Shown here: one piece after another, positions 235-63,830 of the stretch
How the letters are laid out: each line of letters begins with the position of its first letter
Position numbering within the stretch: position 1 is the first letter of the stretch
Assembly: GCA_050575255.1 (NCBI GenBank)
Contig: JBNZDD010013683.1
Coordinates: 124,001 to 188,000 of the forward strand
Direction: 5' to 3'
Length of the DNA stretch: 64,000 nucleotides
DNA from: Harriotta raleighana
Lineage: Eukaryota
Notes under the pieces: model-generated
Seen by the model: only the letters and a program-made list of their open reading frames with translations
What the model was told of the DNA's origin: nothing
Database searches by the model: none
Position numbers and translations under genes: made by a program

Positions 235-3200
235 GTAAGCGGTTCATGTAAATACTTAAACATTTCAGATGAATCTTAACATATACAGCACAACCAACTG
301 TCTACTTACTCATTGGCAATCAATGCAGTGAATTCTGTGAAGCACTTGAGACATTTTCACAATTGCACTATATTAAATGCAAGGATATCATTCACGTTGC
401 TTACATTCTTGCGAGTTTGCATTTTAATTGGAACTTTGGCTTCTTTGTGCTTATTTGCAAAAGTATAATTTTGTTCCAATTAATAAGCTTTGTGTTTCGG
501 TAATGCAAAATCTAGGAGGATGATTATTAATATCAGTTGCCGAGCATTCTACTAAGAAGGTGAAGGGTGTAAGCGGGCATACTTTACATGATACCAATGC
601 TCGCTTTGTTTACATTTGTCCAGTAGTGAGTCCTTACCATACATCTCAAGACCAAACGCATCCTGCGGCAGGTGCTCACCAGCAGTTATCCCAGCAAATC
701 CAGCAGAATGCTGGTTTCCAACGCACAGGCCAGGCCTTCTACAACAGCAGGGGGGTGTCTCGTGGTGGGCCACGCAACTCACGTGGAGCTATAAATGGCT
801 ATCGGGGACCTACCAATGGATTCAGAGGTAGGAGACAGTTTCTCCTTTTCCTCCCTCAAGAGAAAATGTTGGATACTTATAACTGGCTGTAAATATTGAA
901 ACTTGTACAGCTTTTCTCTTGAGTGTAAGGAAATGGTGGTTTTATTAATTGAATACTCTGATCTAGAAGAAGAGGATTTAATGAGTGTTAACTGGAGTCT
1001 TGATGAGGTTTTCCCCCAACAGCTTCATTGATTATAGCATTGCTTGATGTAATTCTAAGCAAAAATAAGAAGGCTTGCAGGTTGTAGCGGATACCCTTCG
1101 ATTGAGGAACTCATCGGGGGCATCACCTAAAAGATTGGCCTCAGTACCCTGTTCCTAGGGAGCATAAACGTAAGCCTGAATTTCTTTCTCTTATTATTTG
1201 GGAACTATAAAACGACTGGAGTTTGAAGAGTGAACGGATTTAGTTGAGATACTCTCTAAGGTTAAATAGCTGGTCACTGTCTTTGCTTACGCATGTATGA
1301 TATTGTAGAGCTGTGAGGGACCATCACACAGCAGCTTCCTTCATTCCTCTACCCTCAGATTCGAGCTGGAACTGGTGCCTTAAGAAAAGAAGGTTGACTA
1401 CAAAAGGAAATTTTGGGTCGCTTTAATTACTGATTAAAAATGAATCCGGTCATTTGCAACTAAACAGTATCTGCTTTGGTTTAATATACTTACTACAGGT
1501 TTTACATTTCAAGTCTCTGGTAATTGCTCCTTATACCTCTTGAGTGTTGTAATTAAAGATATGAATCTGGCTTCTCATCTTAAAAATTATCAAACAACAA
1601 AATTCACGTCAGAACTCGCAACTTTTCTAACTTCTATATGTTTTCCAGGTGGATATGACAGCTACCGCCCTCCATTTTCAAACACTCCAAACAGTGGCTA
1701 TGGACAGTCTCCGTTTTCTTCGGCTCGTGACTACTCCAACTCTAGCTACCAACGTGTAAGTAGACTTCAGCTCACCTTGTCCATGCACATTCCTGAGCAG
1801 GAAGCCGTGGTTAGAAAATTCAGTATTTGGATGCTAGGTTATAAAGACGAAAGGAGAGAACATATTTATTTCCTGACAATCATTACATTCAGTAATCCAT
1901 CAACCTTTCCTACATTGAAGACTCTTGTGGGAGTTATAGATGTACATGATATTTATAATCTCTCATCACAAATCACTTTCAATGCAGGCAGGATGTGCAG
2001 CAAAAAAATTAAAATTTAGCCTACAAAGGATAAGCATTTGATTCTTAATTTTACTAAAGGCACTGAATGTTCTATGTTATCTTCCATTAATAATTAATAA
2101 GAGATTAGTTCAATGCATGATACAGGGATACAGGGATGAAAAAGAACGTCCCAATATCCGATCTTATCATGCCATGAACAGAACAGGATATTTTACTTCT
2201 CTGGGTCTACCTGTCTTGGAAATATTCAAATAAGACTGTTTTTTGAATCCACAACTGAAAATCTACATGGAAGGTGATGTAACATCAAGAATCTTTCAAA
2301 CTCCTCAATGAAATGGGAAGATCCAGATCCTTGAAGGGAATGTGCCCAGTAAACATCCAGAGGAATAAATAGTCTTCAAAGCAAATTCTAGTTTTCATGT
2401 ATTGCCTTGTTAGCACTAACCCTGCAATATGTGTTCTATAAATTTGGTTGAAGAATCAACAGAATGTTTCTACTTTTGGTAATACAGTAAAACCTCATTT
2501 ATCCGGCACCCACGACCTGGCCAGTGGTGGTTAGACGTTTTTTCCAGTTGAACAGATTTTTTTAATTAAACATCATTTTTTCAGAAAAATTAACAATTAT
2601 TTTAACACATACCATATTAATAATGGACTAAATTAAAGCAGAATATTCTATTAGTACATGATTATTTATACTTAAGTTTGCAATTGCAGCACTGATTCGA
2701 CGGGAGGTAAAAAACGCAACTTTAAAAAGCAACAAGTTTAGACCTAACGGCCAGCAAACACACACAGGCAGACACAGATCCTCAAAGATATTCTGTCATC
2801 GTCGTCTCTTCCCCCCCCCCCTCTCTCTCTCCCTTTCCCCATATCTCATTCCCCCCCACCCCCCCNTTCTCTCCATTCCACACCTCTCCCTCTCTCCGTT
2901 TCCTCCCCTCCCTGCCCCACTCTCTCTCTCTCTCTGGCCGCTAAATTTATTATTATATACAGTACTTACCTTCCCAATGACCAGGCACTCATCCATTCGA
3001 ACGAGGTAAAATAAAAACCGCAAGTTTTAAAAAGACCCGGAACAAGTTTAGAATCGACATTCAACGTGTCGCCAGATAACTTCCGGTTAGTCGGACCGGG
3101 ACTTATTTTTTTAGGTGCCGGTTGAACAGGTTTTCCGATTATTCGAGTCACGGATAAACAAGGTTTTACTGTAATACTGTTGTTTCACTGCCAACACAAG

Positions 3201-14930: not shown

Positions 14931-15353
14931 GGTATGAGTTTTACTTAAAAATTCGCAGGAACACAAAAGTGATGGGGTGGATGGCACAACAACTCACAGA
15001 TCAACTTGGGTTCCTGCTTCCAATTGCTAGCTCATGCCTCCAGCCCCAGCAAGAAAATAAATAATAATAATAATCCTTGCATTTGTAGCACCTTATCATG
15101 TCTTGAGACAACCCTTTAGCACTTTACAACGATATACTATAAAATAGAGGGGAAGGAAATGACCAGCATCTTTTGCAGTCTCATGTTGACATAAATATGA
15201 ACTGCTCTCGATTCCAACCCCCAATCCAAAATCCTTAACTATCCAGTGCTTTGAAGTGTCCTTCCTGCATGAAATCTAATTTGTTACATTATTGTTTGTC
15301 TTCCCGTCCTTCAGAAGAGATGTTAAACCGAGGGCCTGTTCAGGTGGATGTTA

Positions 15354-15418
15354 ACAACAACAACAACAAAATTACATTTATAGAGCGCGTTTCACATCAG
15401 GAGGATGTCCCAAGGCGT
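15354..15418 (-). mobile_element. Short LINE (L2-like) 3' tail fragment with (TTG)n end; recurrent family
   Basis: (AAC)n AAAATTACATTTATAGAGCGCGTTTCACATCAGGAGGATGTCCCAAGGCG; similar copies near 13555, 21380, 35309, 41239, 42600 and 54692. Confidence 0.65.
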
Positions 15419-15657
15419 TAAAGATTGCGTGGCACTATTTAAAAGAAAGAGAGTTCTGTTCCCTCCTTCCCGTTCCCTCCTTCCCTGTGTTTCGACCCCA
15501 CACCCCCACCCAAAATAAAATTGGGCCACTCGCTCCATGCCAGATTACTGACAGTGTTGAGTGCTATCTTTGCGGTTGCTTTGCAAGCGAGAGGACTTGG
15601 GTTTGATTCCTGGGATGGGCGAATCGTTGGCCAAGTGTCCTGACCCCGCACGCCTCC

Positions 15658-16158: not shown

Positions 16159-18454
16159 GAGGTGTGTGTGTGAGTGTGTGTGTGTGAGTGAGTGAGTGTG
16201 AGTAAGTGAGTGAGTGAGTTGCCTGGGTTTGGCAGAGAGAAGAATTTCAATCCACGACTGTTTGTGGGCTCTCTGCTGTACCGCAATTGGCTGCCACGTT
16301 TCGCCCTCAACGGTACGGTCAATTCGCTTTACAGTACATTCTGTGAAGCGCTTTGAGACGTCTAGAAGATGTGAAAAGCCGCTATGTCAAATGCCAGAAT
16401 GATTATTATTATTTGTTATAAATAGGGTAAGATAATGGGGGGAACCCACCCTCACAAGGGTCTGTACTCTAGTGCAGCGGTTCTCAACCAGGGGTCCAGG
16501 GGACCCCAGGGGACACAAAATTACTTCCAGGGGGTACAGTTGGCGGTACATTAATTTATTTAACTCACTTATTTGGTGTTTTATAGCCTTCAAAATTGTA
16601 TATTTAATTGTTATTCCCCTCGTTTTGTATGTGCTAGTTATTTTGTTATGTAAGAAAAGCTTGGTCATAAAATGCAAGTGGAATGAACCGGTGGTGTGTG
16701 TGTGTGTGGATGTGTGTTTGTATGTTGTATGTGGTTGGCAAATGTTGAAAACTAACAAAGAGGTACATCACTGAAAAAGGTTGAGAACCGCTGATCTAGT
16801 TGAAAGAAACCCATAGCCAAATGCTTTTACTGTGAGAGATAGAGAGAGAGCGAAAGGGGGTGGGGGTAATTAATGAGGAATAAAAAGGATGGTTTCAAAT
16901 AATAATCATTGCGTTTGGTCCAATGTGAAAAACATTTCCAAGCACTTGTCGAAGTGTCTGCAAATAGCAGTGATTGCGTATCGGTAGGTGAACATCAATG
17001 TCGGTTTCAGACCGTTGTTTAGGAAGCGTTGTGTAACACACTCTATTCGTTGATCATTTTGCTGCAGAACCTGTGGCGGTATTTTTGTCTGTGCTGCAAA
17101 AGTCACCATGTTCAGAAAGAAAATAGACAACCGTATCCGGGTCCTCATTGACAACGGCGTGGTGCAGAAGCAAAGGACCATGGTTGTCATTGTGGGAGAT
17201 CACGGCAGAGATCAGGTAAGGACAAGAACTGATTGTGCTGGCACAACATTACAGTGCTGGGAGAGATTAAAAGTGAGGTCCCTTCTGCCCGTTAACTGGA
17301 TGTTAAAGATCCCGTGGTACTATTGAAAAAGCAAAGGGTTTCTCCCAGTGTCCAGAGTCAACAATCTTCCAGATATAACTTGCCTTTTGTTTCATTGGTT
17401 GTATGTCGGACATTGCTGTGCGCAAATCGGCTGCACCATTCGTCTACAAATACACATTAGCGTAAAATCCTGTGAGCTCACTTTGTTACCTTCAAATATT
17501 GTTTGAAAAATGATTCAAATTCACTTTCCTGTGTTCTTTCACGTCTTGTGTTCATGCTTGAATCCAGTACATTGTTTTTAATGTTGTTGTTGTTAGTGGG
17601 ATGACCTCCCAATGTGAAAGGTGCTCTATAAATGTAATTTTGTTGTTGTGAATCTGGGCCAACAGCACTAAAAAGTCCATAACCTATTGCTAACATCAGA
17701 ACTTTTTGACTCTTGAGGCAAGAGCAGGTACCAACTGAGCCAGTCTGAGACCTTTGTATTGCAAAATCTTGGAATTTGTTCCAATACAATTTTATTGGTA
17801 CAATAATAAATGCCAATTGTGTGGATGTGGGAAGTAATAACAAACATACATTTTTCTCAAACATTCTTTAAGGCTGCTTATTGGAAGTCAGGGTGAAGTC
17901 AAAGGAAGAGAAGATTTACTTTGCGTGACTTTTGTTGTACCAAATAGTTGGTGTACAAATGTTCTTTTCTCTAGGCGAAGAAGAAAGTAAAATAACTTGT
18001 ATGAAGTAATTTGGTGTTTTCCTTTCCTGTTTCTGTAGGTGGTTATACTTCATCACATGCTGTCCAAAGCTGCAGTGAAGGCCAGGCCAACTGTGCTGTG
18101 GTGTTACAAGAAGGAGCTTGGCTTCAGCAGGTAATCAGTGAGGTGCTTCATAATGTCAGCACAAATAGGGGAAAACATATGTGGAGTGTTTTATGAATCT
18201 ATGATAATATACCAACTACTATATTGTTAATAAGCAGGAAGAGGAGGTAGCGTTATAAAACTTGCAATGCTCTAGTGGGTAGTTTGGAAAGTGGTGGGGA
18301 TCATAAACCTTGAATCTGATAGAGAAAAGAGAGGAGTGCTTGGGAAAGCATGGAAGTGGAAAAGACCATTGTGGCGAATCCTATTAGCCCCCTCAAAAAA
18401 CAGACATAATTGTACTTGATTGTATCTCTATTTCTTCACCAAATAGCCATCCAT
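16159..18454 (+). repeat. Near-identical duplicate of 19949-22244, including NAT10 exon 2 (CDS 17108-17215) and exon 3 (18039-18130); probable assembly or haplotype artefact
   Basis: Offset 3790; only isolated SNPs seen; bounded by a gap and a single n at 18455. The adjacent 15298-15657 is likewise repeated at 18456 (offset 3158). Confidence 0.85.
16475..16793. mobile_element. hAT (Charlie/MER5-like) MITE, in the duplicated block
   Basis: TIR CAGCGGTTCTCAACC / GGTTGAGAACCGCTG; 8-bp TSD-like CTCTAGTG / ATCTAGTT. Confidence 0.85.
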
Positions 18455-18737
18455 NGTCTTCCCGTCCTTCAGAAGAGATGTTAAACCGAGGGCCTGTTCA
18501 GGTGGATGTTAACAACAACAACAACAAAATTACATTTATAGAGCGCGTTTCACATCAGGAGGATGTCCCAAGGCGTTAAAGATTGCGTGGCACTATTTAA
18601 AAGAAAGAGAGTTCTGTTCCCTCCTTCCCGTTCCCTCCTTCCCCGTGTTTCGACCCCACACCCCCACCCAAAATAAAATTGGGCCACTCGCTCCATGCCA
18701 GATTACTGACAGTGTTGAGTGCTATCTTTGCGGTTGC

Positions 18738-18812
18738 TTTGCAAGCGAGAGGACTTGGGTTTGATTCCTGGGATGGGCGAATCGTTGGCCAAGTGTCCTG
18801 ACCCCGCACGCC

Positions 18813-18875
<63 letters not shown>

Positions 18876-19887: not shown

Positions 19888-20008
19888 GAGTGAGTGTGTG
19901 TGTGTGTGTGAGAGTGGTGTGTGTGTGTGTGAATGAATGTGTGTGAGTGAGGTGTGTGTGTGAGTGTGTGTGTGTGAGTGAGTGAGTGTGAGTAAGTGAG
20001 TGAGTGAG
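19888..20008. repeat. (GT)n/(GAGT)n microsatellite
   Basis: Directly visible in the sequence. Confidence 0.85.
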
Positions 20009-20264
20009 TTGCCTGGGTTTGGCAGAGAGAAGAATTTCAATCCACGACTGTTTGTGGGCTCTCTGCTGTACCGCAATTGGCTGCCACGTTTCGCCCTCAA
20101 CGGTACGGTCAATTCGCTTTACAGTACATTCTGTGAAGCGCTTTGAGACGTCTAGAAGATGTGAAAAGCCGCTATGTCAAATGCCAGAATGATTATTATT
20201 ATTTGTTATAAATAGGGTAAGATAATGGGGGGAACCCACCCTCACAAGGGTCTGTACTCTAGTG

Positions 20265-20583
20265 CAGCGGTTCTCAACCAGGGGTCCAGGGGACCCCAGG
20301 GGACACAAAATTACTTCCAGGGGGTACAGTTGGCGGTACATTAATTTATTTAACTCACTTATTTGGTGTTTTATAACCTTCAAAATTGTATATTTAATTG
20401 TTATTCCCCTCGTTTTGTATGTGCTAGTTATTTTGTTATGTAAGAAAAGCTTGGTCATAAAATGCAAGTGGAATGAACCGGTGGTGTGTGTGTGTGTGGA
20501 TGTGTGTTTGTATGTTGTATGTGGTTGGCAAATGTTGAAAACTAACAAAGAGGTACATCACTGAAAAAGGTTGAGAACCGCTG
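20265..20583. mobile_element. hAT (Charlie/MER5-like) MITE in NAT10 intron 1
   Basis: 15-bp perfect TIRs CAGCGGTTCTCAACC; NTCTAGNN target site. Confidence 0.85.
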
Positions 20584-20897
20584 ATCTAGTTGAAAGAAAC
20601 CCATAGCCAAATGCTTTTACTGTGAGAGATAGAGAGAGAGCGAAAGGGGGTGGGGGTAATTAATGAGGAATAAAAAGGATGGTTTCAAATAATAATCATT
20701 GCGTTTGGTCCAATGTGAAAAACATTTCCAAGCACTTGTCGAAGTGTCTGCAAATAGCAGTGATTGCGTATCGGTAGGTGAACATCAATGTCGGTTTCAG
20801 ACCGTTGTTTAGGAAGCGTTGTGTAACACACTCTATTCGTTGATCATTTTGCTGCAGAACCTGTGGCGGTATTTTTGTCTGTGCTGCAAAAGTCACC

Positions 20898-21005
20898 ATG
20901 TTCAGAAAGAAAATAGACAACCGTATCCGGGTCCTCATTGACAACGGCGTGGTGCAGAAGCAAAGGACCATGGTTGTCATTGTGGGAGATCACGGCAGAG
21001 ATCAG
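20898..21005 (+). CDS. NAT10: NAT10 exon 2 (start codon)
   Basis: Kozak GTCACCATG; [36 protein letters not shown]|gtaagg. Confidence 0.95.
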
Positions 21006-24000
21006 GTAAGGACAAGAACTGATTGTGCTGGCACAACATTACAGTGCTGGGAGAGATTAAAAGTGAGGTCCCTTCTGCCCGTTAACTGGATGTTAAAGAT
21101 CCCGTGGTACTATTGAAAAAGCAAAGGGTTTCTCCCAGTGTCCAGAGTCAACAATCTTCCAGATATAACTTGCCTTTTGTTTCATTGGTTGTATGTCGGA
21201 CATTGCTGTGCGCAAATCGGCTGCACCATTCGTCTACAAATACACATTAGCGTAAAATCCTGTGAGCTCACTTTGTTACCTTCAAATATTGTTTGAAAAA
21301 TGATTCAAATTCACTTTCCTGTGTTCTTTCACGTCTTGTGTTCATGCTTGAATCCAGTACATTGTTTTTAATGTTGTTGTTGTTAGTGGGATGACCTCCC
21401 AATGTGAAAGGTGCTCTATAAATGTAATTTTGTTGTTGTGAATCTGGGCCAACAGCACTAAAAAGTCCATAACCTATTGCTAACATCAGAACTTTTTGAC
21501 TCTTGAGGCAAGAGCAGGTACCAACTGAGCCAGTCTGAGACCTTTGTATTGCAAAATCTTGGAATTTGTTCCAATACAATTTTATTGGTACAATAATAAA
21601 TGACAATTGTGTGGATGTGGGAAGTAATAACAAACATACATTTTTCTCAAACATTCTTTAAGGCTGCTTATTGGAAGTCAGGGTGAAGTCAAAGGAAGAG
21701 AAGATTTACTTTGCGTGACTTTTGTTGTACCAAATAGTTGGTGTACAAATGTTCTTTTCTCTAGGCGAAGAAGAAAGTAAAATAACTTGTATGAAGTAAT
21801 TTGGTGTTTTCCTTTCCTGTTTCTGTAGGTGGTTATACTTCATCACATGCTGTCCAAAGCTGCAGTGAAGGCCAGGCCAACTGTGCTGTGGTGTTACAAG
21901 AAGGAGCTTGGCTTCAGCAGGTAATCAGTGAGGTGCTTCATAATGTCAGCACAAATAGGGGAAAACATATGTGGAGTGTTTTATGAATCTATGATAATAT
22001 ACCAACTACTATATTGTTAATAAGCAGGAAGAGGAGGTAGCGTTATAAAACTTGCAATGCTCTAGTGGGTAGTTTGGAAAGTGGTGGGGATCATAAACCT
22101 TGAATCTGATAGAGAAAAGAGAGGAGTGCTTGGGAAAGCATGGAAGTGGAAAAGACCATTGTGGCGAATCCTATTAGCCCCCTCAAAAAACAGACATAAT
22201 TGTACTTGATTGTATCTCTATTTCTTCACCAAATAGCCATCCATTTCCTCCTTGAATTTGTTGATACAATCTGAATCTTTGCGTGATACACAATTCACTC
22301 TTGGATAGTTCATATATTGAGCGATGCCTGTGTAATGGAGTGTAGTTTAAGTGAGAAGCAGATGAGAAAGAACAGGAGAAATGCTACGTTGATAACACTT
22401 ATATTTGTGAACATTCCAATATAATTTGGCTGATAGAAAAGTTACTGAATGTAGCACAAGAATGAAGGCAGCCGTTCTAGAAATGGCATGTATCTGTTTC
22501 TCTTACAGTCACAGGAAGAAGCGAATGAGGCAGTTGCAGAAGAAGATTAAAAGTGGCACGCTTGATCTGAAGCAAGATGATCCCTTTGAGCTGTTTGTCG
22601 CTGCAACTACCATTCGATATTGCTATTACAATGAAACACACAAAATCCTGGGCAACACATTCGGGATGTGTGTCTTGCAGGTGAGATTATAGCAGTTACT
22701 GTTTTCATTGTGCTTCAAATTCTTTCACTCGTTTAAAAATGTAGACATAAAGAATGTAGTCATAAAGAACTGTGACAAAATATCAATGTAGTTGATTGAA
22801 TGTAACAATGAAAATATTGCTCCTAAGTTAAATAGCCTGATGCTGTCCCCCTCTTGGTTAGTGTTTAAAGAATAGCCCCTAAGCTGGGGCACCATATGCA
22901 TCTGTTGTACTGTACCTGAACATTTCAATATTAGCAAATGTGGTGGGTGGAGGGAAAGATGGTTACCCTTTGGGTTATTGGCAATATTGATGTCTCTAAT
23001 GCCTGCTGTGGAGGTTGGAAGTGATACAAAGTCTGATTTTAGTTTGTGCTGCATTTCTAGAATGAATTATCAATTAGTTTGAATTCTTAGGTTACAGCAT
23101 CTAATTCTTTGGCTTCAACCATTGAATGTAATGGATTTCTAGTAGATCAGCAGCAATCATTTCTCCAGTTTTAAACTGTCGTACAACAAAATAATTTTAT
23201 CAAGTATTATTCATTTACAATGTGTATAAAGTAGCCTGTAAACGTATTTACCTGTGTTTCATTCAATCCTCTTTATCTTCTAGGATTTTGAGGCTCTTAC
23301 ACCAAATCTCTTGGCCCGAACTGTTGAGACAGTCGAAGGAGGTGGAATTATTGTAATTCTACTGAGAACAGTAAACTCATTGAAACAGCTCTACACAATG
23401 ACAATGGTACGTGTTGGTTTATTGGAGGTTATTCATTTTCGTTCAAAACACTCTCCACCCCTACCATTGGAGGGCAAGCTTTTATTCACTTGGTACATGG
23501 TGGCAAGCAGTGCTCAAGTTTCTTGCCTCACCAAAATCCCAACAGTCTTTAGTGTATATATACATTTTTTTTAATGATTTATTTTCTCTTTAACTCCTTT
23601 TCTAGGATGTACATGCCCGCTATAGAACAGAGGCACATCAGGATGTTGTTGGGCGTTTCAATGAAAGGTAGGAGTTCTGCCTTCTCAACATGGAATGTAC
23701 ATAAAAAGCACAAAGCTGGTATGAATAAAGATTTTATTTTCTTATCTCTTTCCAGGTTTATCCTCTCTTTGTCATCCTGTAAGAACTGTATTGTTATAAA
23801 TGATCTCCTGGATATTCTACCACTTTCCAGCCACATTCTCAACATCCAGTCTGTGCCTCCTAAATCCATGGTGAGTTCTGGAGTTTGCACATCCAGGTTG
23901 GATGTGGGGAAGGTGAGGGGGAAGGTGACTAGAAGAGCAACCTCAAGATGGGGAAGAAAGGGTGGGGAGGCAACAGGGTTGGGGGAGGGAGTTCCAAAGT

Positions 24001-27000: not shown

Positions 27001-30000
27001 ACAAAGTATTCAGAGCTAAAGCTTGGAGACCCCAGAGTGTGAATTAGGGTACTGATGTAATTTAACTAGCTAAGACTGCATAGCTTTCTATTGTGTGCAT
27101 TGTCTGGCAAACTTTCCACTGCTTGTCCACCTAGCACAACCTTCCTATTAGGGATCTGCAGGGTTAAAAAAAATTGTTTGGCGAAAAAAGGTTTTTATTT
27201 TTCCTGCTTAATCACCTTATCTAAATTTGCCTCTACTTGCATATCAAGATCCTCCATAATATTGTCAATGGTTGCAAGTCATGGGAGATCTGTGAGCACT
27301 TTTTGTGTGTGGAATATGATTACCTGGTGTATTTGTAAAAGAGTAACAGAAAGGGTGTCAACTGCTCCTGTCCTATTACAGTTCATGTGACCGGGCTGGA
27401 GATTTGGATTGACAGAACGGAAATTGGAGGTGCTATTCGTGCAGCTGCATCCTGTCTTTTAAAGTTGTCTTAAAAGAAAGAGTCTGTGTGTGTGTGTGGG
27501 TGGGGTATTAATGTCACTCCTGACTTGCTTTAAATGTAATTTTTTGGCAGTGCGGACGTTGCACGAGGTGACGTTACATGAGTCTATCCGCTATGCTCCT
27601 GGGGACCCGGTGGAGAAGTGGCTGAATGAGCTGCTCTGTTTAAACTGTCTGAACATCCCCAGAATCATCTCGGGCTGCCCAGTCCCGGAGACCTGTGACC
27701 TGTATCCATCAGTCAGTTTCAATGAATATCCGAAATGTGTTTCCGCGCCTAGAATGTACTGAGGGAGGAAGCTCCTGTAATAAGATCTCTTTGACTCCTT
27801 AACGGTTGTTAAGCTTCATGTAACCAGGGCACTTTAATTCACTTTTGTTCAAGATTTTCCCTGAGATTTGAACTGGGCTTAAATAAGGAATTTCAATATG
27901 GCATTCGGTTCTTGCATATTGCATTACACTGCCCTGGTTTTAACATTGTTTTTCTCTCCATCCCTATTCCTTTGAAGGAAACACCGTGCTTTGTGTGCTC
28001 TGTCTCCACTCTAAATCTGTCCACTCTAAATCTGATTTCTCTTAATAAGGAAGACATAAGAAGAAGCTTTACTTAATAACTGTTGTGTGCAGTTGGCTGC
28101 CTTGTTTGGCCCACAAAATATCCAGTCAATCCACTTTACAGTATATTCTATGAAGTGGTTTGAGACGTCTCGAAAACATGATCAGGTGTTATATCGTCCA
28201 CAAATATACAGTCAATTCACTTCACAGTATATTCCGTAATGCCCTTTTGAGATGCCCAGAAGACGTGAAAAGCGCTGTATCAAATTAGGATTATTATTAT
28301 TATATCAAATTCAAGTATTATTATTACAACATGATTTGTTGAAGATGGTTGATATCTTCAGCCTGGTTTCTTTTCCTCAACTGCTGTTACAGTTATTATG
28401 TCAAAAGGGACACGCTGTTCTGTTACCACAAAGCGTCTGAGGCTTTCCTGCAGAGAATGATGGCTTTGTACGTAGCATCGCATTACAAGGTAAACCATTG
28501 AATTATGTCAATCTAAAATGCCTTTCAACCTCATTCTGATGTAATTTTCATTTTTACAGGAGATTATAAAACCACTTTTGTTTTTTTTACCCCTGGAGAA
28601 TCAATTGTGGATTATATTCTGAATCTTTGATTTTTTTCAATTGGATCTTCAGTGGCAAGGTTGAAACCTACATTCCGAATTTAGAATTTTCCTCATTCGG
28701 TATTTACAGTTCTTTTTTAAAAAATCATTCAATGCATTCACAGTAAGTGATGTTTTTTACTGTAAATGCCAAACGAGGAGAATTATGAGTTTCAATTCAA
28801 CATTTCAGTGCATGTAGTAGGTGTGTGGAAAGTTGAAAGGGAAAGCATTACTTGACAGCTAAGGGGATGCCTTGCATTTCAGCCAATTGTTTTGAGATTT
28901 ACTTTGCGTTTGTTAATTAAACCTTTACCAACACCTCCACAGAACACTCCTAACGACCTTCAGTTACTGTCGGACGCTCCTGCTCACCATCTCTTCTGCC
29001 TGCTGCCCCCAGTGACGTCCACTCAGAATTCTTTGCCAGAAGTGCTGGCCGTCATTCAGGTAATGTACAAACAGCACCGCGTAGAAGCCTGATTTAATTA
29101 AGTACGGCAGCCGGTTTGTGGACAGCAATATCACAGCAATGGAATGAATGACCAATTTATTTGGGGATTGTTGGCTAAACTATCGGGAGGAACACCCTTC
29201 TCTTCACATGTGTTTTACTTTTCCCTTTTCCAGGTGTGTCTCGAGGGAGAAATATCTCGTCAGTCGGTGATCAACAGTCTCTCTCGAGGGAAGAAAGCAT
29301 TTGGAGATCTCATTCCCTGGACTGTGTCGGAACAGGTATGGTGATGGTCTTGTTCCTTGCGCTCTCCAGCTGGGGACATACTTTCAGTCACTGTGCCCCG
29401 ATACACTGGAACACTGTTCCAGTATCCCTTCACCTTGCCCCTTCCTTCCCTGTAAGGAATGAAAAAAACCTACAGTTCCTCCAGAATATGTACAGATTCT
29501 CAATACTGCAATCGTATGTTTTGATTGCTACCACTAGAGGCTGTTAACTGTAAATACTTCAAACCCGTAAATGCAGAAACTGTTGTGTTATTCTGCTGGT
29601 TCATCCTACTGTAAAGTTGATCGTTTCTGTAGGTTTCTCCAGGAAGAGCAATCCCTGGAATGTTGCCCATTTAATTGCTGTTTGATTTCATGGAGCCTTC
29701 TTTGTTACAGTTTCAGGATCCTGATTTCGGAAGTCTGTCTGGAGCACGTATAGTCCGTATTGCAGTGCACCCAGATTACCAAGGGGTAATGTAATCCCTT
29801 TTCCTCGGAAGAAGAATGTTACGGTCTTTCTATCCATTTGATGTTTTGCTGAGTGTTTTCATTGTCTCCAATGGCGTAGGGTGAAGGAGCTCAACCACAC
29901 CTTTTACAAGCTGTTTGGTCAACATATTGTTGGGTGGTATTGTGTCTTGTGTTCCAAAGAAGGAAGGGTATTTGCTATACCACAATTTTTTTGTGTATGG

Positions 30001-33000
30001 TTTAGCAACTGGAACCTTGGGTCTAGGAATCTCCAGAAGAGTTCCTGCACCAGATTAATTCTGTTTGCATCTGACATATCCATTTGTTGCTGCAATGGAT
30101 CAGGTCAATGCTCCTGATGTTAATTGATTACCAGCCAATTAAGAAACAATTTAAGTGTTAGACTATTCAACTCCAGTATCTAGAGAGGAAAGAAAATCAA
30201 GTGTGTAAAACTATAAATTCCACAATTGGTCTTAAATAAGGAATTTCAAAATAATAATAATAAAATCCTTGCATTTGATATAGCGCTTTTTACGTCTTCT
30301 AGACATATCAAAGATCTTCACAGAAGATACTGTAAAGTGAATTGACTATATATGTGGGTGAAACGCGGCAGCTAATTTTATTTTTGAGTTTTTTTGGAGG
30401 GATTATTATTAGGCATGTGGAATAAGGAAACTTACCCAAGGTTTCGGCCTGATCTGTAAACACTTGGCATTGTGGTCTTCAATATTGTATTATACTGCTC
30501 TGGTTTTAACATGGTTTTCCTCTCCATCCTTGTTCCTTGCTTATGTGACTAGATGGGATATGGAAGTCGGGCTGTGGAGTTATTAAAGATGTACTATGAG
30601 GGGAAGTTTCCTGGTCTGGAGGAGAGAGAGAGCCAGAAATCCAGTGAAATAGCCACTGTCAGCAGTGAGGTAAGGATAGGGACAGTATAAAGGAGAAACG
30701 ATTTAGGAGTTTCTTTTTAAGTTCATGTAAAGACTAGAGCATACGTTTGTGTGTGTCTTAGGAATTTGAATAATAGTTCAAACTTGGATTGTTGTTCAAA
30801 AAGTGTTTTACAACAATATTATTAAGTGCACTAGACTTCATGCCTGTTAATCTTGGAAGGTGGTGGGGGTTTCTGTGTAAGGTGTGTGGGAGGAAATATG
30901 CAGCTACGTTTCTAAGGTCAGTTTCTGTTTTTCGGTTTCTATAAATCAACAATTGTAGGATTGAGCTAATTCACCCCTGCTGCGATGCTCCTCCATTGGC
31001 GAAGGTTTGAATTGAACACTGGTCCACTGTACGGAGCCCAGTATATTTTGATGTGATGGAGTGTGACTTGTTTGGCACACCCAGCAAGCACATTCCAGCA
31101 ACCGAGTGCTGGGTAGCTTCTGGCACAGGAAACTGCATTTTATACAGGCCAGCCCAGTAAAAATGTTTCTGTGGGATTGAGAGCCTTTTGTCTACTGGTT
31201 CTGCTGCCTTCAATTTCAGCTCTGTTTCAGGCAATAGTTGAAGTATGAGACCCTGCTGTTCCTGAATATTAATAAACATTTGATACTTCAAGCTGATCCT
31301 AAAACATTTTAATTTTTTTTGTCTGGATTTTTTTCCCCCCTCCGTTTAGCAACTTTCGCCCCTCTCCTGATAGCATTTCACTCCTTTTCCCTTCTTCATT
31401 AGTGGGAATCCATGGCATCGGACACCCTTTGGTCTCAACCAAGGGGCCACTGTCGGCAGACGATTTGATTGTGAAGGGAATTGCAGCCAAGTGCAGTCCT
31501 ATCCTCGCCCAATACTCACCAGCAGAGGTCTCTTGTTAACAACCTTGAGTGGGAAGCAAGGCTGGTTTCCCTCTTCCTAACTAACCCAGTGAGCTGATGC
31601 CAAATTTTGTGCCATAACTCCTTCCCTAACTGAGTCCCAGTTTTCAGTCACAGGCTTTCTGGTTAGCATGGCTTAGTGATGCCAATTATTAGACCACCAG
31701 TGGCACTATTTACAGCTTTATTTATACAAATGTTTTTACAATACATTGTGCGTGTCCAATTCTGAAACTTAGCTTCTTGCATCACCTAAAACAGGATTCT
31801 GTTGGAGTTTTTGCACCCTCTATTTTGAAATCTAATGATTCTGTTCTCCCAAGTATGAAAATAACTTGGTTTCCTCCCCCACCTCGGCCTTCTGTTTGGG
31901 CGTAGGCCTTTTCTTGGATAAAATCTTTGAAGGAATTCGGCCAAGTGAAATCATACTGCAAAGCAGTACAACTTGTTGCAACTCCAGTACTTTTCCATAT
32001 CATCTGCAGGGGGAAAGTCTGGAACCAACCACTGAGTAACGCTTGGTCCTCAGTGCGAGATTTTGTCATTCTAGTGTGTGCGCTTTTTAAAAAATATCAA
32101 AACAATGGTTTGCTTTAGGACAAAGATGTATATTATTGTAAAAAATTATTTGTCCTCAGGCTGTAGGTTTACTAGAAGAGATGCTGTCACCACGTAGAGA
32201 TCTACCACCATTATTGTTAAAGCTGTGCGAGCGCCCAGCAGAGAAACTTGACTACCTCGGAGTATCTTATGGACTTACGCCACAGCTGTTAAAGTATGTC
32301 ACCGTGCTCGTTTCAATTTCAACACAGGCATTTTTAACATTTTATCTTACCTATCCCCCAGCTCTTTCTCTCTCTATATGTATATATATATATATATACA
32401 CACACACATATATCTCTGCTCCAAAACAATGGTTACCGCTTTGATGTTCAGATTTGATTTCCAAACATTTTAAAAATTAGTTTGAGAAATTCTGTTCCAA
32501 GAATGTTTTCCGTTTGACCCTGATACGTCTCACTGGGGAAATGCGAGTATCAGGGTACAAAAATAGATAGCCCTATAAAACTGAAATATCTGTGCTAGAG
32601 TCTGAGATTGTTTCGCAGCAAATTGCTTTCCATTTTGGGGGACAGCACTGCGTTGCTTGGGACATTTGGCAGAGAAATTGATTGATGAGTGTGCGAGAGA
32701 GATTAGTGTATTTTTTTTTAAAACTGAAGATCAGCCAGATTGATCATAATAGTCTTTGCTGGTCCAGTACATAACCTTTAGTTCTTTTTCCACAAGTGCA
32801 AAATGTACCCATGAGCATGGAAATATAGGTTATCTATGCATCCAGCATTTAATAAAGATTTTTAATGAAGGTATATGCATGACCATGGAGATGCATGATT
32901 TAATAAATGCAATAACTCTAAAACTCAATTCTTTCAAAAATGACCGGTCATACATTCACCCAAAAGCTCAAGGCTTTTTTCCTTGAATTGTTCTTAAGTT

Positions 33001-36000
33001 TTTTGGGGGGAGGGACAAAATTGAGATGCATCTAAAAGCTGCACATTTTTATGTTCCTGTTCCCGGGGGAAACTCCTTGTGCTTTGAAAACAGTCCAGGC
33101 CATTCAGCGGAGAAGTGGTTAATATGCAGCCTGGGATTGCTTTAGACCAGTAACATAATATCCAGTCTAACTGCCAAGGTTTCCAGATGGGACCTATTTC
33201 TGTGCTGACTCCAAATTGTTGGAGAGGTGGTATATGTCTACACACAGAGCCATGCTTCCAGCCATTGAAAACCTGTCACTTGTGTAACAGAAACATCATA
33301 AGCCGGGCAGTGATTTTGTTGGCTGCACCAATGAATAGAACTCTCCATCTGCTCTTCATATGTCCTGTGAACTTTAAATACAGGAACTGCAGACTCTTCC
33401 ATAATGATCAAATTGGTGGTACGCAGGCCAAACCTTTTAGTACTGCCAATCATTCCTATCTCATGGACTCCTTGAAGAAGTCTTATTAGTAGTGTGTGTG
33501 AAAGGAGAGTTGCATAGGGTAACCAACAACTTGTGATACCAATATTTTATAAGTCTTAAAGAAATGATTACATATTTTTTACATAACAGGGGTAGTTATC
33601 ACAACTTTTTGGTCACCCTGTAGAAAGCTGAATAGTTTTCTCACTAAACAAAATTGGCTTCTGTTTTATGAAGACAACAAAATTTGCTCCCTGCTCTACC
33701 AAGGACTTGCAGCTGCAGGATTGGTACAGGGATGTGCAAGGAAACCAGCAAACCAGGGACATTGCTGGACCTGCTCTATGTGCCATTTTGATGCTACCTC
33801 TATTTACCAATGGTGCACAGTTGCATTCAGTTTTCCCTGCTGCCCTTCCCGAAAGCCTAAATACTCCATTGTTTCAGTCCAGGTTCATGGATTTCAATAA
33901 ATGTTACCCCGAGTTCTAAAAATCGCTCTATAATGCACGTACAAATTGTGTCCTTCTGAATGACTGCCCAGCAAGAGTATTCAGGTGAACTCGGAGAATC
34001 ACGTGAATGTAACGGCAGAACGTTAAAACTTAGCGTATTAGCAGCACTGGACAAGCCCGAAGCTCATAAAACCTGATGGGTAAATTGGACGAATATGAAT
34101 GGCCACAGAATATAGGATTCCATCTCAGCCCATCTGGATCATGAATAAGTTTACGGGTCTAAAATCTTTTCACTGTAGCATAAAATGCTACAAGGATTAA
34201 ACCTTCATCTAGTTCACTTTATTAGTGAGTGATTTAATGTTTCATTTGTGCCCCAGAAACGAGGCTCTTGGCAGATGTTTCATTAGCAAATATGGGCCAC
34301 AACACTGATGCCACAGGATCTTTAACCCAGCACGGCACAAAGTGAGAGTTTAATGTCCCAAGTGACTGATTGCCTCTAGCATTGAAGAGTTCTTACTTAC
34401 TCATAAATACTTCATGTCAGGCTGCCGGAGCTAAAGCATTTAAATTTTTGTTATTGAGGAGTCATGAATTGGGAGCTATTTATAAACGTATGGTTTTTAA
34501 AACATTTCTCCCCTACATTAGATCGGATTCTCTGTCAGTGAACCATGAATACCATTGTAGCAGACATTTAATAATGTTGAAGTGAAGGAATGATTGCACT
34601 GTAATCTAATACCAGTGATATATTTAAAGAGCCGCACTTATCTGTTTGAACACTCGTTTCTCATGTCAAACTGAAATCCATGTCATTTAACCTTATTGAG
34701 TTCTGACGCAACTTTTTGACTGGGTCCTTTCATTAACAAACCTGTCTGTTCTTTTCCTGGAGTGAGACGTTCCTGGAGGTAATCAGTAATGCACAGTATC
34801 TACCAGAATTCCAAAAACTCTTGATTGTTATTGTTTGAATCTGAGAGCGTTAGTCCCTTTCAGTTTTGTACTGCCCCTAATCTGTCTCTTTACCGGTGCC
34901 TTATTAGTGATAATTTATTCCCGACAACTGTGTGCAAGTAATTCAAAACTTTCCGCCTTGTTATAGAGAATATGTTGGGGTCAGCATTGTGGAGTATGCA
35001 ACCTATACGGAGCATGGGCAGCACTGTTTCATGCAATGCTTCTCATAGCTACTGCGGGGCACCAGTTACTTGTAACTGTCTTTCCGGAACTCCATGATAA
35101 ATCCAGCTCTTTTCCCTCAGAATTTCCCTGTGAGAAACTTTCATTTAACTTTAAAACTATTTCATACTTTTTTTTTTCAAATACTCAATTGCGTGTTTTT
35201 GTTTTTAAGGTTCTGGAAGCGAAGCGGATATGTTCCCGTGTATCTGAGACAGACGCCTGTAAGTCGCTTGTATTCATGTGAATGTGAACATGCTTGGGAA
35301 CCGATATAACAACAGCAAAATTACATTATAGAGAGCCTTTCATGTTGGGAGGACGTCCCAAGGTGCTGAAATAGTGAGATAGAGTGCCGCCATCTGGTAA
35401 AGTTAGTTAGTGCGCACAAAATAAAAGGGATGGGTATTTCTCAGTTGCAAAAAAGAGAAGAGTAATCACTGGAAAGACCAAAGATGATCGCTGAATATAA
35501 TACTGATTAAAACTATTTCATGCTTTTTTTGTCCCAAATACAAGTCCTTGTCCTTTGCAAACACTCAGAGAATTTTTAACAAAGAAAAAAAAATTAGGCC
35601 GTTTCCTCAACTGTGCTTCAGGATACTTAGTATGAGAAGCGTACAGCAAATCACCTCAGCTGCTATCAACACCTCGACACCTGCCATTCTGCACTTGAGT
35701 GTACTTTTTGCACTAGAGGTTGGCTTTTAATAAAGGTTTTGTTAATTTCAGAATGATTTGACAGGTGAACACTCTTGCATCATGTTGAAGACACTGAATG
35801 AAGACGAGGAGGAACCTGGGCAACAGAACTGGCTCCATGCCTTCTGGAAAGGTACAGACACAAAACTAGCCCTTCAGTAAAATATAATATGCTGATCCAG
35901 TTGTTGCACAACTGAAGTTAACCAGTTGTGTTTTGCACCTTATTTGTGCTCTTGGTATTTGTGACTAGAAATTATGCTGTTGGTGAGAAGAGATGGAAAG

Positions 36001-39000
36001 TGTCTTCTGATACCAAATGCCATTATATAGGCTTATATGTATTTTGTACGTGATCACCCATACAATGTGTTCCATGTCTGCAGATTTTAGGAAGCGATTT
36101 CTCTGCCTGCTGTCATACCAGTTCAGCAGTTTCCCTCCCCATTTGGCACTGAATATTCTTCAGAATAAAAACATGAAACAGGAACCAAAGCCACGTGAGT
36201 ACTCATACCATTTGTTGGATGATTTTTTGTTAAAAAGGCATGGAATGGATGCATGTGTTCGTAAGGAAACCTTATCCAAGGACTTGGAAATTCAGTCCCA
36301 TGTTGGTTATGTAACATGAACAAGCTTTCATCTTATTGTGTTAGAAAATCTCAAAGTGTTTCACAGTGTTTACTACTGCNAGCGAAGCGGATATGTTCCC
36401 GTGTATCTGAGACAGACGCCTGTAAGTCGCTTGTATTCATGTGAATGTGAACATGCTTGGGAACCGATATAACAACAGCAAAATTACATTATAGAGAGCC
36501 TTTCATGTTGGGAGGACGTCCCAAGGTGCTGAAATAGTGAGATAGAGTGCCGCCATCTGGTAAAGTTAGTTAGTGCGCACAAAATAAAAGGGATGGGTAT
36601 TTCTCAGTTGCAAAAAAGAGAAGAGTAATCACTGGAAAGACCAAAGATGATCGCTGAATATAATACTGATTAAAACTATTTCATGCTTTTTTTGTCCCAA
36701 ATACAAGTCCTTGTCCTTTGCAAACACTCAGAGAATTTTTAACAAAGAAAAAAAAATTAGGCCGTTTCCTCAACTGTGCTTCAGGATACTTAGTATGAGA
36801 AGCGTACAGCAAATCACCTCAGCTGCTATCAACACCTCGACACCTGCCATTCTGCACTTGAGTGTACTTTTTGCACTAGAGGTTGGCTTTTAATAAAGGT
36901 TTTGTTAATTTCAGAATGATTTGACAGGTGAACACTCTTGCATCATGTTGAAGACACTGAATGAAGACGAGGAGGAACCTGGGCAACAGAACTGGCTCCA
37001 TGCCTTCTGGAAAGGTACAGACACAAAACTAGCCCTTCAGTAAAATATAATATGCTGATCCAGTTGTTGCACAACTGAAGTTAACCAGTTGTGTTTTGCA
37101 CCTTATTTGTGCTCTTGGTATTTGTGACTAGAAATTATGCTGTTGGTGAGAAGAGATGGAAAGTGTCTTCTGATACCAAATGCCATTATATAGGCTTATA
37201 TGTATTTTGTACGTGATCACCCATACAATGTGTTCCATGTCTGCAGATTTTAGGAAGCGATTTCTCTGCCTGCTGTCATACCAGTTCAGCAGTTTCCCTC
37301 CCCATTTGGCACTGAATATTCTTCAGAATAAAAACATGAAACAGGAACCAAAGCCACGTGAGTACTCATACCATTTGTTGGATGATTTTTTGTTAAAAAG
37401 GCATGGAATGGATGCATGTGTTCGTAAGGAAACCTTATCCAAGGACTTGGAAATTCAGTCCCATGTTGGTTATGTAACGTGAACAAGCTTTCATCTTATT
37501 GTGTTAGAAAATCTCAAAGTGTTTCACAGTGTTTACTACTGCATGTATTTGTAGGGGAATGTGACAGCCAATTTGTGGACAGCAATGTCCCACAAATAGC
37601 CAGGAAATTGTTGGCCAGGACTCTGTGAGAAACTCCCCTTTCACATAGTGACACAAATTCATTAACGTCCACTTGACCAGGCAGATGGTCCCCGAGTTTA
37701 CTATTTCTTCCTGAAGATGGCACCTCTGACAATGCAATTCCAACATTGCACTGAAATGTCAGCCTAGATAATGTGCTCAAAGCATCAACATAGGAAGTGA
37801 ATCCACAATCTGGTTTGGGAGACAAAAGTGCAACTAAACAAGCCACGCCATGCTGACGCATTTAAACGCAGTTCCTTTTTTTTTGATCTGAAGACGAAAC
37901 CAAATTTGACCTAAATGGAATGATGCATGTAGGAGGAGAGCCTTTCCTGTGGATATAAAATTAAAATTTTGAAAGTTTATTAAAGTACAACATTGCCGTA
38001 TATAATGTACACCAGATGTGGAGGCTTCAAATCTTAGGCTGGAGATTGGAAAGGAGGCAATTTGTAAGCTTGGTCTTAATTAAAGTTGACACCATACCCT
38101 TTTGTTGGTGAAACAAAGCCACGCAGTATCTCTGGCTCAGCTAACTCTAAATCTTTTGTTTTTCTAACAAAAGTATTGCTGCTTTTCTCTTCCCTACTTT
38201 ACTTGACTGTCAGACTGAGTTGTGTTGCATTCGTTCCCCAGGAGTTTATCCATGAGGCCACATTCCGTATGTGAGCCAAAAAAGTGGGTGTGGGATCTAG
38301 TGCAGGTGGTTTGATGGAGGGAGGCAGAGAGACAGCCAGCCCCATAGCCAGGCTCTGATACCTCGCCTGATGTAATAACGGAGAGATGCATTGCAAGACG
38401 CAGGAGTGCCAAGCTTGTGACTGTCTCGCTATACTGCAGGAACATCTGGTTTGATCCAATCTTGGTTTGGTGTTATGCAAGGCAGAGAATGATTATTGGA
38501 TGTGCATTGTTGCTTAATTATATCTGCTGCAGCATGCGTATCCTCAATAATAATATAATAATAATAATCCTTGCATTTGATATAGCGCTTTTCACATCTT
38601 ATCGACGTCTCAAAGCACTTCACAGAATATACTGTAAAGTGAATTGACTGTATATTTGTGGGTGAAACGACAACTCAAGGATGCAAAGATCAGTGATAGT
38701 TAGCATTCCGCACTGGCAGCTGCTAATGAGAGAAAAAAAATGTAAAACAAAATTAAACCACAATTAAGAGTTTTCAAAGCTGTAATCTGACCACAAGGTT
38801 CCAATGATACTTTTAAACTTGTCTGTGCTGCCTCATGAGCAAACAATTAATTAGACTTGTAATTAATCCAAGGTACCCATTATTTCAGCTTTAATTACAA
38901 GGCGGGCAATGGTGATACAGTATTGACTAAATTCAGATGGTTCAAAAACATATTTTAAATGCTTCCTCTTTCTACTGTAGCAGTGAGCAGGTCCGAGCTG

Positions 39001-51094: not shown

Positions 51095-63830
<12,736 letters not shown>

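What the first reader, a model, noticed from the sequence alone, without database searches (positions are those of the whole stretch)
27796..27823. Second, consensus-perfect U12 branch point and AG inside the NAT10 minor intron, leading directly to a stop: candidate minor-spliceosome poison acceptor
Seen: TCCTTAAC (27796-27803) followed by GGTTGTTAAG (AG at 27812-27813). The spacing matches the productive site TCCTCAAC-TGCTGTTACAG (28374-28392), but the branch is a better match to the U12 consensus TCCTTAAC. Splicing the GTATCCAT donor (27702) here removes a 112-nt intron and reads CT|C TTC ATG TAA. That is a premature stop before the GNAT domain with many downstream junctions. Established: U12 3' splice site choice is driven by the branch sequence about 10-20 nt upstream of the AG, and minor introns can be rate-limiting. 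Inference: two competing U12 acceptors could set the ratio of productive to NMD-targeted NAT10 mRNA, and so ac4C writer dosage. It may instead be neutral debris.
Basis: partly seen in the sequence, partly recalled or inferred. Interest (0 to 1): 0.72.

Follow-up and report, generated by a model that had tools for sequence, protein, structure and literature searches.

The report
Weaker decoy acceptor in NAT10 intron
A rare "minor-type" intron of the NAT10 gene holds a second splice-site look-alike that scores lower than the real one and is likely harmless debris, possibly a decayed copy of the real site; whether cells ever splice to it is untested.

Summary
The motif, the spacing and the stop are there as described, inside the known NAT10 minor intron (27702-28392). 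The main argument fails. The decoy is the better branch only if 8 letters are compared. Both exact 12-mers stand in a published U12 matrix table: decoy 78.0, productive site 82.9. The stop carries no information, because 33 of 34 other AGs in this intron also lead to one. The pattern occurs about 10,000 times in the genome (about 0.3% per intron of this size), so a few such cases per genome are expected. New here: the decoy and the next 30 nt resemble the real acceptor and exon start (29 of 40 columns; p 0.003-0.05), and 40 nt further on a 102-nt piece is clearly a copy from a later NAT10 intron. A decayed local copy is slightly favoured over chance. Use and conservation could not be tested: the one related transcript contig shows the normal junction and does not cover the intron. 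The scan noted copied U12 acceptors before, in two other genomes. Regulated poison acceptor: about 8%.

The parts
27551..27701 (+). NAT10 exon upstream of the minor intron (human residues about 458-507)
   Evidence: phmmer of 49 aa to human NAT10 458-506, E 2.8e-22; AG at 27549-27550
27702..27710 (+). U12-type GT donor
   Evidence: Its 12-mer differs only in the last letter from the PTEN minor donor scored 96.5/98.7; NAT10 is listed as a minor-intron gene in human and mouse
27793..27804 (+). Decoy U12 branch 12-mer (octamer core 27796-27803)
   Evidence: identical 12-mer scored 78.0 in PMC6717393 supplement file 1
27812..27813 (+). Decoy AG, 11 nt after the branch A, in an AAG|C context
27798..27813 (+). 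Predicted 6-bp hairpin that pairs the decoy branch with its own AG
   Evidence: the accessibility difference to the true site is not robust
27821..27823 (+). TAA reached if the decoy is used
27796..27832 (+). Stretch resembling the true acceptor plus exon start (28374-28413); possible decayed copy
   Evidence: 29 identities, 8 mismatches, 3 gaps in 40 columns; anchored p 0.003-0.05
27871..27972 (+). Old local duplicate shared with the 3' end of a later NAT10 intron, pyrimidine tract included; an AG follows at 27976-27977
   Evidence: 87 of 102 identical; E 6.8e-14, only two copies found in the genome
28079..28326 (.). Pieces of an abundant interspersed repeat inside the intron
   Evidence: many matches across the window
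28371..28382 (+). Productive U12 branch 12-mer
   Evidence: identical 12-mer scored 82.9; best 11-mer of the intron
28391..28392 (+). Productive AG, 12 nt after the branch A, in a CAG|T context
   Evidence: keeps the frame open over six exons; a relative's contig joins here
28393..28489 (+). Downstream 97-nt exon with the best U2-like donor of the region
30224..30538 (+). Other copy of the 102-nt piece (30224-30252 and 30465-30538), split by a repeat insertion and ending 14 nt before the exon at 30553

Best explanation
The site is a second U12-type branch-plus-AG look-alike inside the NAT10 minor intron that scores below the real branch, and it is likely neutral debris, most likely the decayed remnant of an old local copy of the real acceptor. 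Shown: the motif, its lower score, a 102-nt local duplicate beside it, and the normal junction in a relative's transcript contig. Inferred: the U11/U12 particle pairs the 27702 donor with the stronger branch at 28371, helped by exon definition across the 97-nt exon. Any leak to 27814 would give a premature stop and probably NMD, the same loss-of-function outcome as intron retention (stop at 27760), so selection tolerates the site rather than uses it.
For: Identical 12-mers score 78.0 (decoy) against 82.9 (true) in one matrix: a shared 12-mer scores 91.27 in both the mouse and human columns. Hydrogen-bond score 17 against 21 over 11 nt. The true exon is 97 nt and ends in the best U2-like donor (7 of 9); a decoy exon would run 676 nt to it. 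33 of 34 other AGs also give a stop. Origin as a copy: 29 of 40 columns identical to the true acceptor and exon start. Anchored extension after the octamer was reached by 16, 63, 108 and 299 of 6000 AG-matched controls under four scorings. Pair-HMM Bayes factors were 1.5-11.3, with 4-11 of 400 controls as high. An unambiguous local duplicate lies 40 nt downstream, in the same order as the presumed sources. Human and mouse NAT10 branches read CTTAAC like the decoy, as a copy of the ancestral acceptor would.
Against: The copy signal is weak. There is no similarity upstream of the branch (score 0; Bayes factor 0.08-0.11). Exon alone against the decoy flank: 139 of 1000 shuffles as high. Unanchored, the true acceptor unit scores 14 at the decoy and 14-16 at unrelated window places. 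Divergence is about 27% against 15% for the neighbouring duplicate, so the two probably are not one event. Against neutrality: the decoy 12-mer is a listed branch in mouse Efl1, the spacing is in the optimal range, it is transcribed about 580 nt before the true site, and a simple duplex model gave it similar pairing energy (-6.7 against -6.2 kcal/mol, bulge not modelled).
Confidence: 0.5

Rival explanations
1. Chance motif, also neutral: point mutations in AT-rich intron DNA produced the octamer near an AG, and the likeness to the real acceptor is coincidence.
For: 10,271 genome rows of the pattern. With about 700 minor-intron genes (human figure, PMC8329584) and an assumed 1-3 kb per intron, 3-10 such cases are expected per genome. 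20 window sites are as good on the 9-mer rule. No upstream similarity, and copy tests are borderline.
Against: Only about 0.3% prior in this intron, times p 0.003-0.05 for the downstream likeness, beside a proven local duplicate.
Confidence: 0.37
2. One reading: two U12 acceptors compete for one donor, and regulated use of the proximal one sends NAT10 mRNA to NMD and sets enzyme dosage.
For: Usable branch score and spacing. The stop lies 666 nt before the next junction, with at least five more junctions after it. Cryptic 3' sites are among the commonest events across minor introns and mostly predict NMD (PMC6717393, passages).
Against: Weaker branch on the full motif. The stop is uninformative. 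NAT10 is absent from the human and mouse table of alternatively spliced minor introns (supplement file 6 has no hit), and such events were mostly not conserved between mouse and human. A review notes that alternative U12 3' sites may be splicing errors (PMC3584512, passages).
Confidence: 0.08
3. The decoy AG and the GTAA six bases later define a 6-nt microexon (27814-27819) that adds Phe-Ile in frame and removes the stop; or the copied pyrimidine tract and AG at 27976 act as a U2 acceptor nested in the U12 intron, as in MAPK8/9 and TMEM87.
For: The in-silico join reads through in frame. The donor-like site scores 6 of 9. Nested U2 acceptors in U12 introns are described (PMC8329584).
Against: The donor lacks G at -1 and +5. 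No reads support it. The AG at 27976 reaches a stop after 12 codons from the U12 donor frame, and no duplicate coding exon was found behind it.
Confidence: 0.03

Closest known systems
NAT10 minor (U12, GT-AG) intron of human and mouse (PMC6717393; supplement rows and passages seen)
   Same: Same gene and same kind of donor; a short intron (593 and 534 nt against 691 nt here); imperfect branch (84.6 human, 65.1 mouse). That it is the same intron position is inferred from the gene and the donor context, not from a fetched alignment.
   Different: Not listed as alternatively spliced there. The mammalian intron interiors were not available, so an internal decoy in them was not tested.
Cryptic or alternative 3' splice sites inside minor introns (CAT7/CAT8 of PMC6717393; PMC3584512, passages)
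   Same: An intronic acceptor paired with the U12 donor, predicted to give a premature stop.
   Different: Those were seen in reads; this one has no read support.
Regulated unproductive splicing at minor introns: SRSF10, SNRNP48 and RNPC3 (USSE), CENATAC, MAPK8/9, TMEM87 (PMC8329584, parts 1-3 of 6 read)
   Same: A splice choice at a minor intron leading to NMD or a truncated product.
   Different: All of those involve U2 against U12 sites or U11 as an enhancer; SNRNP48, RNPC3 and CENATAC are described as highly conserved, several are autoregulatory. Two U12 branches competing for one donor is not described in the parts read, and neither conservation nor feedback is shown here.
Copied U12 acceptors noted earlier by this scan (e1-7931703, elephant shark DOCK2; e1-9866790) - AI notes, unchecked
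   Same: A decoy U12 branch plus acceptor upstream of the real one, read as a local copy.
   Different: The DOCK2 copy is described as exact over 67 nt; here identity is 29 of 40 columns and the copy origin is only probable.

Membership tests
U12-type GT-AG intron (host intron 27702-28392) | U12 5' splice site | tested here: met
   11 of 12 letters equal to the PTEN minor donor scored 96.5/98.7
U12-type GT-AG intron (host intron 27702-28392) | U12 branch sequence 11-13 nt from the 3' site | tested here: met
   12-mer scored 82.9; 12 nt; optimum from PMC3584512
U12-type GT-AG intron (host intron 27702-28392) | Spliced at these ends | tested here: met
   Frame open over six exons; one contig of a related organism runs from the upstream exon into 28397 onward (the run is only guessed to be RNA)
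Functional U12 acceptor (decoy) | Branch within the range of real U12 introns | tested here: met
   Identical 12-mer listed for mouse Efl1, score 78.0
Functional U12 acceptor (decoy) | Branch-to-AG distance 11-13 nt | tested here: met
   11 nt
   78.0 against 82.9; 17 against 21 over 11 nt
Functional U12 acceptor (decoy) | Junction 27701^27814 occurs in RNA | not testable with these tools
   No RNA run of this species was listed
Regulated AS-NMD (poison) event | Premature stop more than 50 nt before a junction | tested here: met
   666 nt before 28489, more exons follow; equally true of most other AGs
Regulated AS-NMD (poison) event | Conservation above flanking intron | not testable with these tools
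   No relatives' genomes held (header)
Regulated AS-NMD (poison) event | NMD-sensitive isoform and a regulator or feedback | not testable with these tools
   Needs NMD-inhibited RNA-seq or a minigene
Decayed local duplicate of the real acceptor | Similarity beyond the selected motif | tested here: inconclusive
   p 0.003-0.05 anchored; 33, 44, 139 and 457 of 1000 in four shuffle tests; Bayes factor 1.5-11
Decayed local duplicate of the real acceptor | Similarity also upstream of the branch | tested here: not met
   a copy may have begun at the branch, so this lowers but does not exclude it
Decayed local duplicate of the real acceptor | Independent sign of local copying in the same intron | tested here: met
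   87 of 102 identical, two copies found in the genome

The most novel reading that the evidence does not exclude
An old duplication left a second U12 acceptor that selection has kept while its exon decayed, so that two minor-spliceosome branch sites compete for one donor and proximal use sends NAT10 mRNA to NMD: a U12-against-U12 poison switch on the ac4C writer.
Probability: 0.08. Interest if true: 0.7.

Novelty: new member of a known kind. Interest (0 to 1): 0.2.

Why it matters
As it stands it is minor: a cryptic site in a known minor intron. It could serve as a natural test of how U11/U12 chooses between a near, weaker branch and a far, stronger one with exon-definition support. If the poison model held, it would be a U12-against-U12 regulatory switch, a kind that I did not find in the review parts read or in the listing of one search, acting on an essential ribosome-biogenesis enzyme.

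Tried and rejected
Expression: no RNA holder listed; the one run X1 is a related organism (12 differences in 158 exon bases) and only guessed to be RNA. Laid on 27500-28070 it gave 2 contigs, no joint at 27814 and no cover of the intron after 27705. Contigs drop rare variants, so this is no evidence for or against use or conservation. The first laying (16 kb) was swamped by repeats. U12 snRNA search in the own genome found nothing, with 43 of about 64,000 candidates scored and no control ringing: uninformative; the complement of the consensus stood in for it. Hairpin masking as an explanation: the stem is predicted, but opening energies were 3.5-5.0 (decoy) against 1.7-4.5 kcal/mol (true), the order reversed in 1 of 4 flank sizes, and random 11-mers averaged 4.4; not relied on. 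A second NAT10 copy as an internal control: none found. Decoy as part of a transposon: no other copy of 27702-27870 in the genome search, which skips very common words. One single duplication covering both copied pieces: disfavoured by unequal divergence. intronIC and MaxEnt were not available. Three papers on U12 branch and 3' site rules were not held; the distance rule comes from a review. Searches for NAT10 with 'U12-type intron' or 'minor intron' listed only unrelated reviews; searches listed no title on this site. The preference for a pyrimidine before the AG is recalled, not tested.

Full report
Setting. The window is G000:C13683:124001-188000 of a 1.10-Gb genome. Earlier notes on this genome call it a chimaera (not tested here). 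The exon before the intron matches human NAT10 residues 458-506 (E 2.8e-22). Pfam GNAT_acetyltr_2 matches start at window 28940 and tRNA_bind_2 matches lie further on; no second NAT10 locus was found. Six exons from 27552 to 30669 join into 219 codons without a stop (a first try with mis-set boundaries was corrected). NAT10 is a listed minor-intron gene in human and mouse, with introns of 593 and 534 nt (PMC6717393, supplement rows). The donor here differs by one letter from the PTEN minor donor. One contig of a related organism runs from the upstream exon into sequence that matches 28397-28426 at 29 of 30 letters (compared by eye), which supports the productive junction 27701^28393.

Observation. 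The branch A lies 11 nt from the decoy AG and 12 nt from the true AG; the optimum is 11-13 nt (PMC3584512, passages).

Is the decoy the better branch? Only over 8 letters. The consensus used in PMC8848931 (section 7 read) has 9 letters and a hydrogen-bond maximum of 19; on it both sites score 17. Over 10 and 11 letters the true site leads 19 to 17 and 21 to 17 (the 11-letter consensus is recalled). Both exact 12-mers stand in supplement file 1 of PMC6717393: the productive one as human POLE2 with 82.9, the decoy as mouse Efl1 with 78.0. The matrix is shared between species, since one 12-mer scores 91.27 in both columns. So the decoy is usable in principle but weaker. A crude duplex fold gave near-equal energies (-6.7 decoy, -6.2 true; the bulge was not modelled), which does not support the ranking. 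On the 11-letter rule three more sites in the same intron tie or beat the decoy (28036, 28067, 28230).

Is it more than chance? The window holds 2 octamers against 2.24 expected. The genome holds 1,136 rows at the exact spacing and 10,271 at spacings of 6-13 (12 of the 100 listed rows repeat a branch with another AG). That is about 0.3% per 640 nt. With about 700 minor-intron genes (human figure) and an assumed 1-3 kb each, 3-10 such cases are expected per genome. On the 9-letter rule the window has 20 sites, 0.10 per 640 nt. The stop adds nothing: 33 of 34 other AGs in the intron reach a stop before the next donor, 6 of 34 within four codons, and plain retention stops at 27760.

Origin. The decoy and the bases after it resemble the true acceptor and exon start: 29 identities, 8 mismatches and 3 gaps in 40 columns. 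With the octamer left out and controls matched for the AG, 16, 63, 108 and 299 of 6000 controls scored as high under four scorings. A pair-HMM gave Bayes factors of 1.5, 6.5, 10.7 and 11.3, with 11, 6, 5 and 4 of 400 controls as high. Shuffle tests gave 33, 457, 139 and 44 of 1000, and 27 of 902 window pieces scored as high. Against: nothing upstream, and unanchored scores no better than unrelated places. Independently, 27871-27972 is 87 of 102 identical to 30224-30252 plus 30465-30538, the 3' end of a later NAT10 intron split by a repeat; only these two copies were found in the genome. Local copying has therefore certainly touched this intron. The two pieces lie in the order of their presumed sources, as a collapsed tandem duplication would leave them, but their divergence differs (about 27% against 15%), so separate events are more likely. 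Human and mouse NAT10 branches carry CTTAAC, like the decoy and unlike the present true site, which fits a copy of an ancestral acceptor but does not prove it. I put the copy origin slightly ahead of chance. I had this idea before the look-up (note); two earlier scan notes describe copied U12 acceptors in other genomes and are leads only.

How it likely works. U11/U12 recognises donor and branch together, and exon definition with flanking U2 sites supports minor introns (PMC3584512 passages; PMC8329584 parts 1-3). The true site has the stronger branch, a CAG|T context and a 97-nt exon closed by the best U2-like donor nearby. The decoy has AAG|C, would need a 676-nt exon, and is predicted to sit in a 6-bp hairpin, though that accessibility difference is not robust. 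Inference: the decoy is ignored or used at error level, and any product is degraded like the retained-intron product. In its favour, it is transcribed first and would form a short 112-nt intron, so some leak is plausible.

Comparison. Cryptic 3' sites across minor introns are common, mostly predict NMD and are poorly conserved between mouse and human. NAT10 has no row in that paper's alternative-splicing table (file 6) and appears in file 5 with two values whose meaning I did not read. The regulated cases in the review parts read (SRSF10, SNRNP48, RNPC3, CENATAC, MAPK8/9, TMEM87) involve U2 against U12 sites. Other papers were seen only as search listings, except PMC2831892 (passages). The PDF supplements of PMC6717393 were not among the 8 files held.

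Verdict. The feature is real and the poison reading is unsupported but not excluded, since use and conservation could not be tested. Decayed copy 0.50, chance 0.37, regulated poison acceptor 0.08, microexon or nested U2 use 0.03. Interest 0.2.

Noticed in passing
window 35213-36379 and 36376-37542: A 1167-bp tandem repeat at 99.7% identity with a single N at the joint; it doubles at least one NAT10 exon (identical tRNA_bind_2 matches at 36077 and 37240). Probably an assembly artefact.
   Followed up: partly
window 16159-18454 = 19949-22244 and 15298-15657 = 18456-18815: Near-identical repeats (99.7-99.9%) around the N gap near 15.7-16.2 kb; probably overlapping contig ends.
   Followed up: no
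window 27940-27977: The copied intron piece brings a pyrimidine tract and an AG into the U12 intron: a U2-type acceptor look-alike nested in a minor intron.
   Followed up: partly
window 27814-27825: The TAA reached from the decoy lies inside a GTAA donor-like site six bases after the decoy AG; using both would add Phe-Ile in frame.
   Followed up: partly
window 30253-30464: A repeat insertion splits the downstream copy of the duplicated piece and is absent from the upstream copy, so it likely came after the duplication.
   Followed up: partly
window 524-2019 (+) and about 53800-58900 (-): Exon-like ORF pieces that I recognise from memory as CAPRIN1 and ABTB2, the neighbours of NAT10 in other vertebrates; not tested.
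   Followed up: no
window 15232-15239: The only other TCCTTAAC in the window; context not examined.
   Followed up: no
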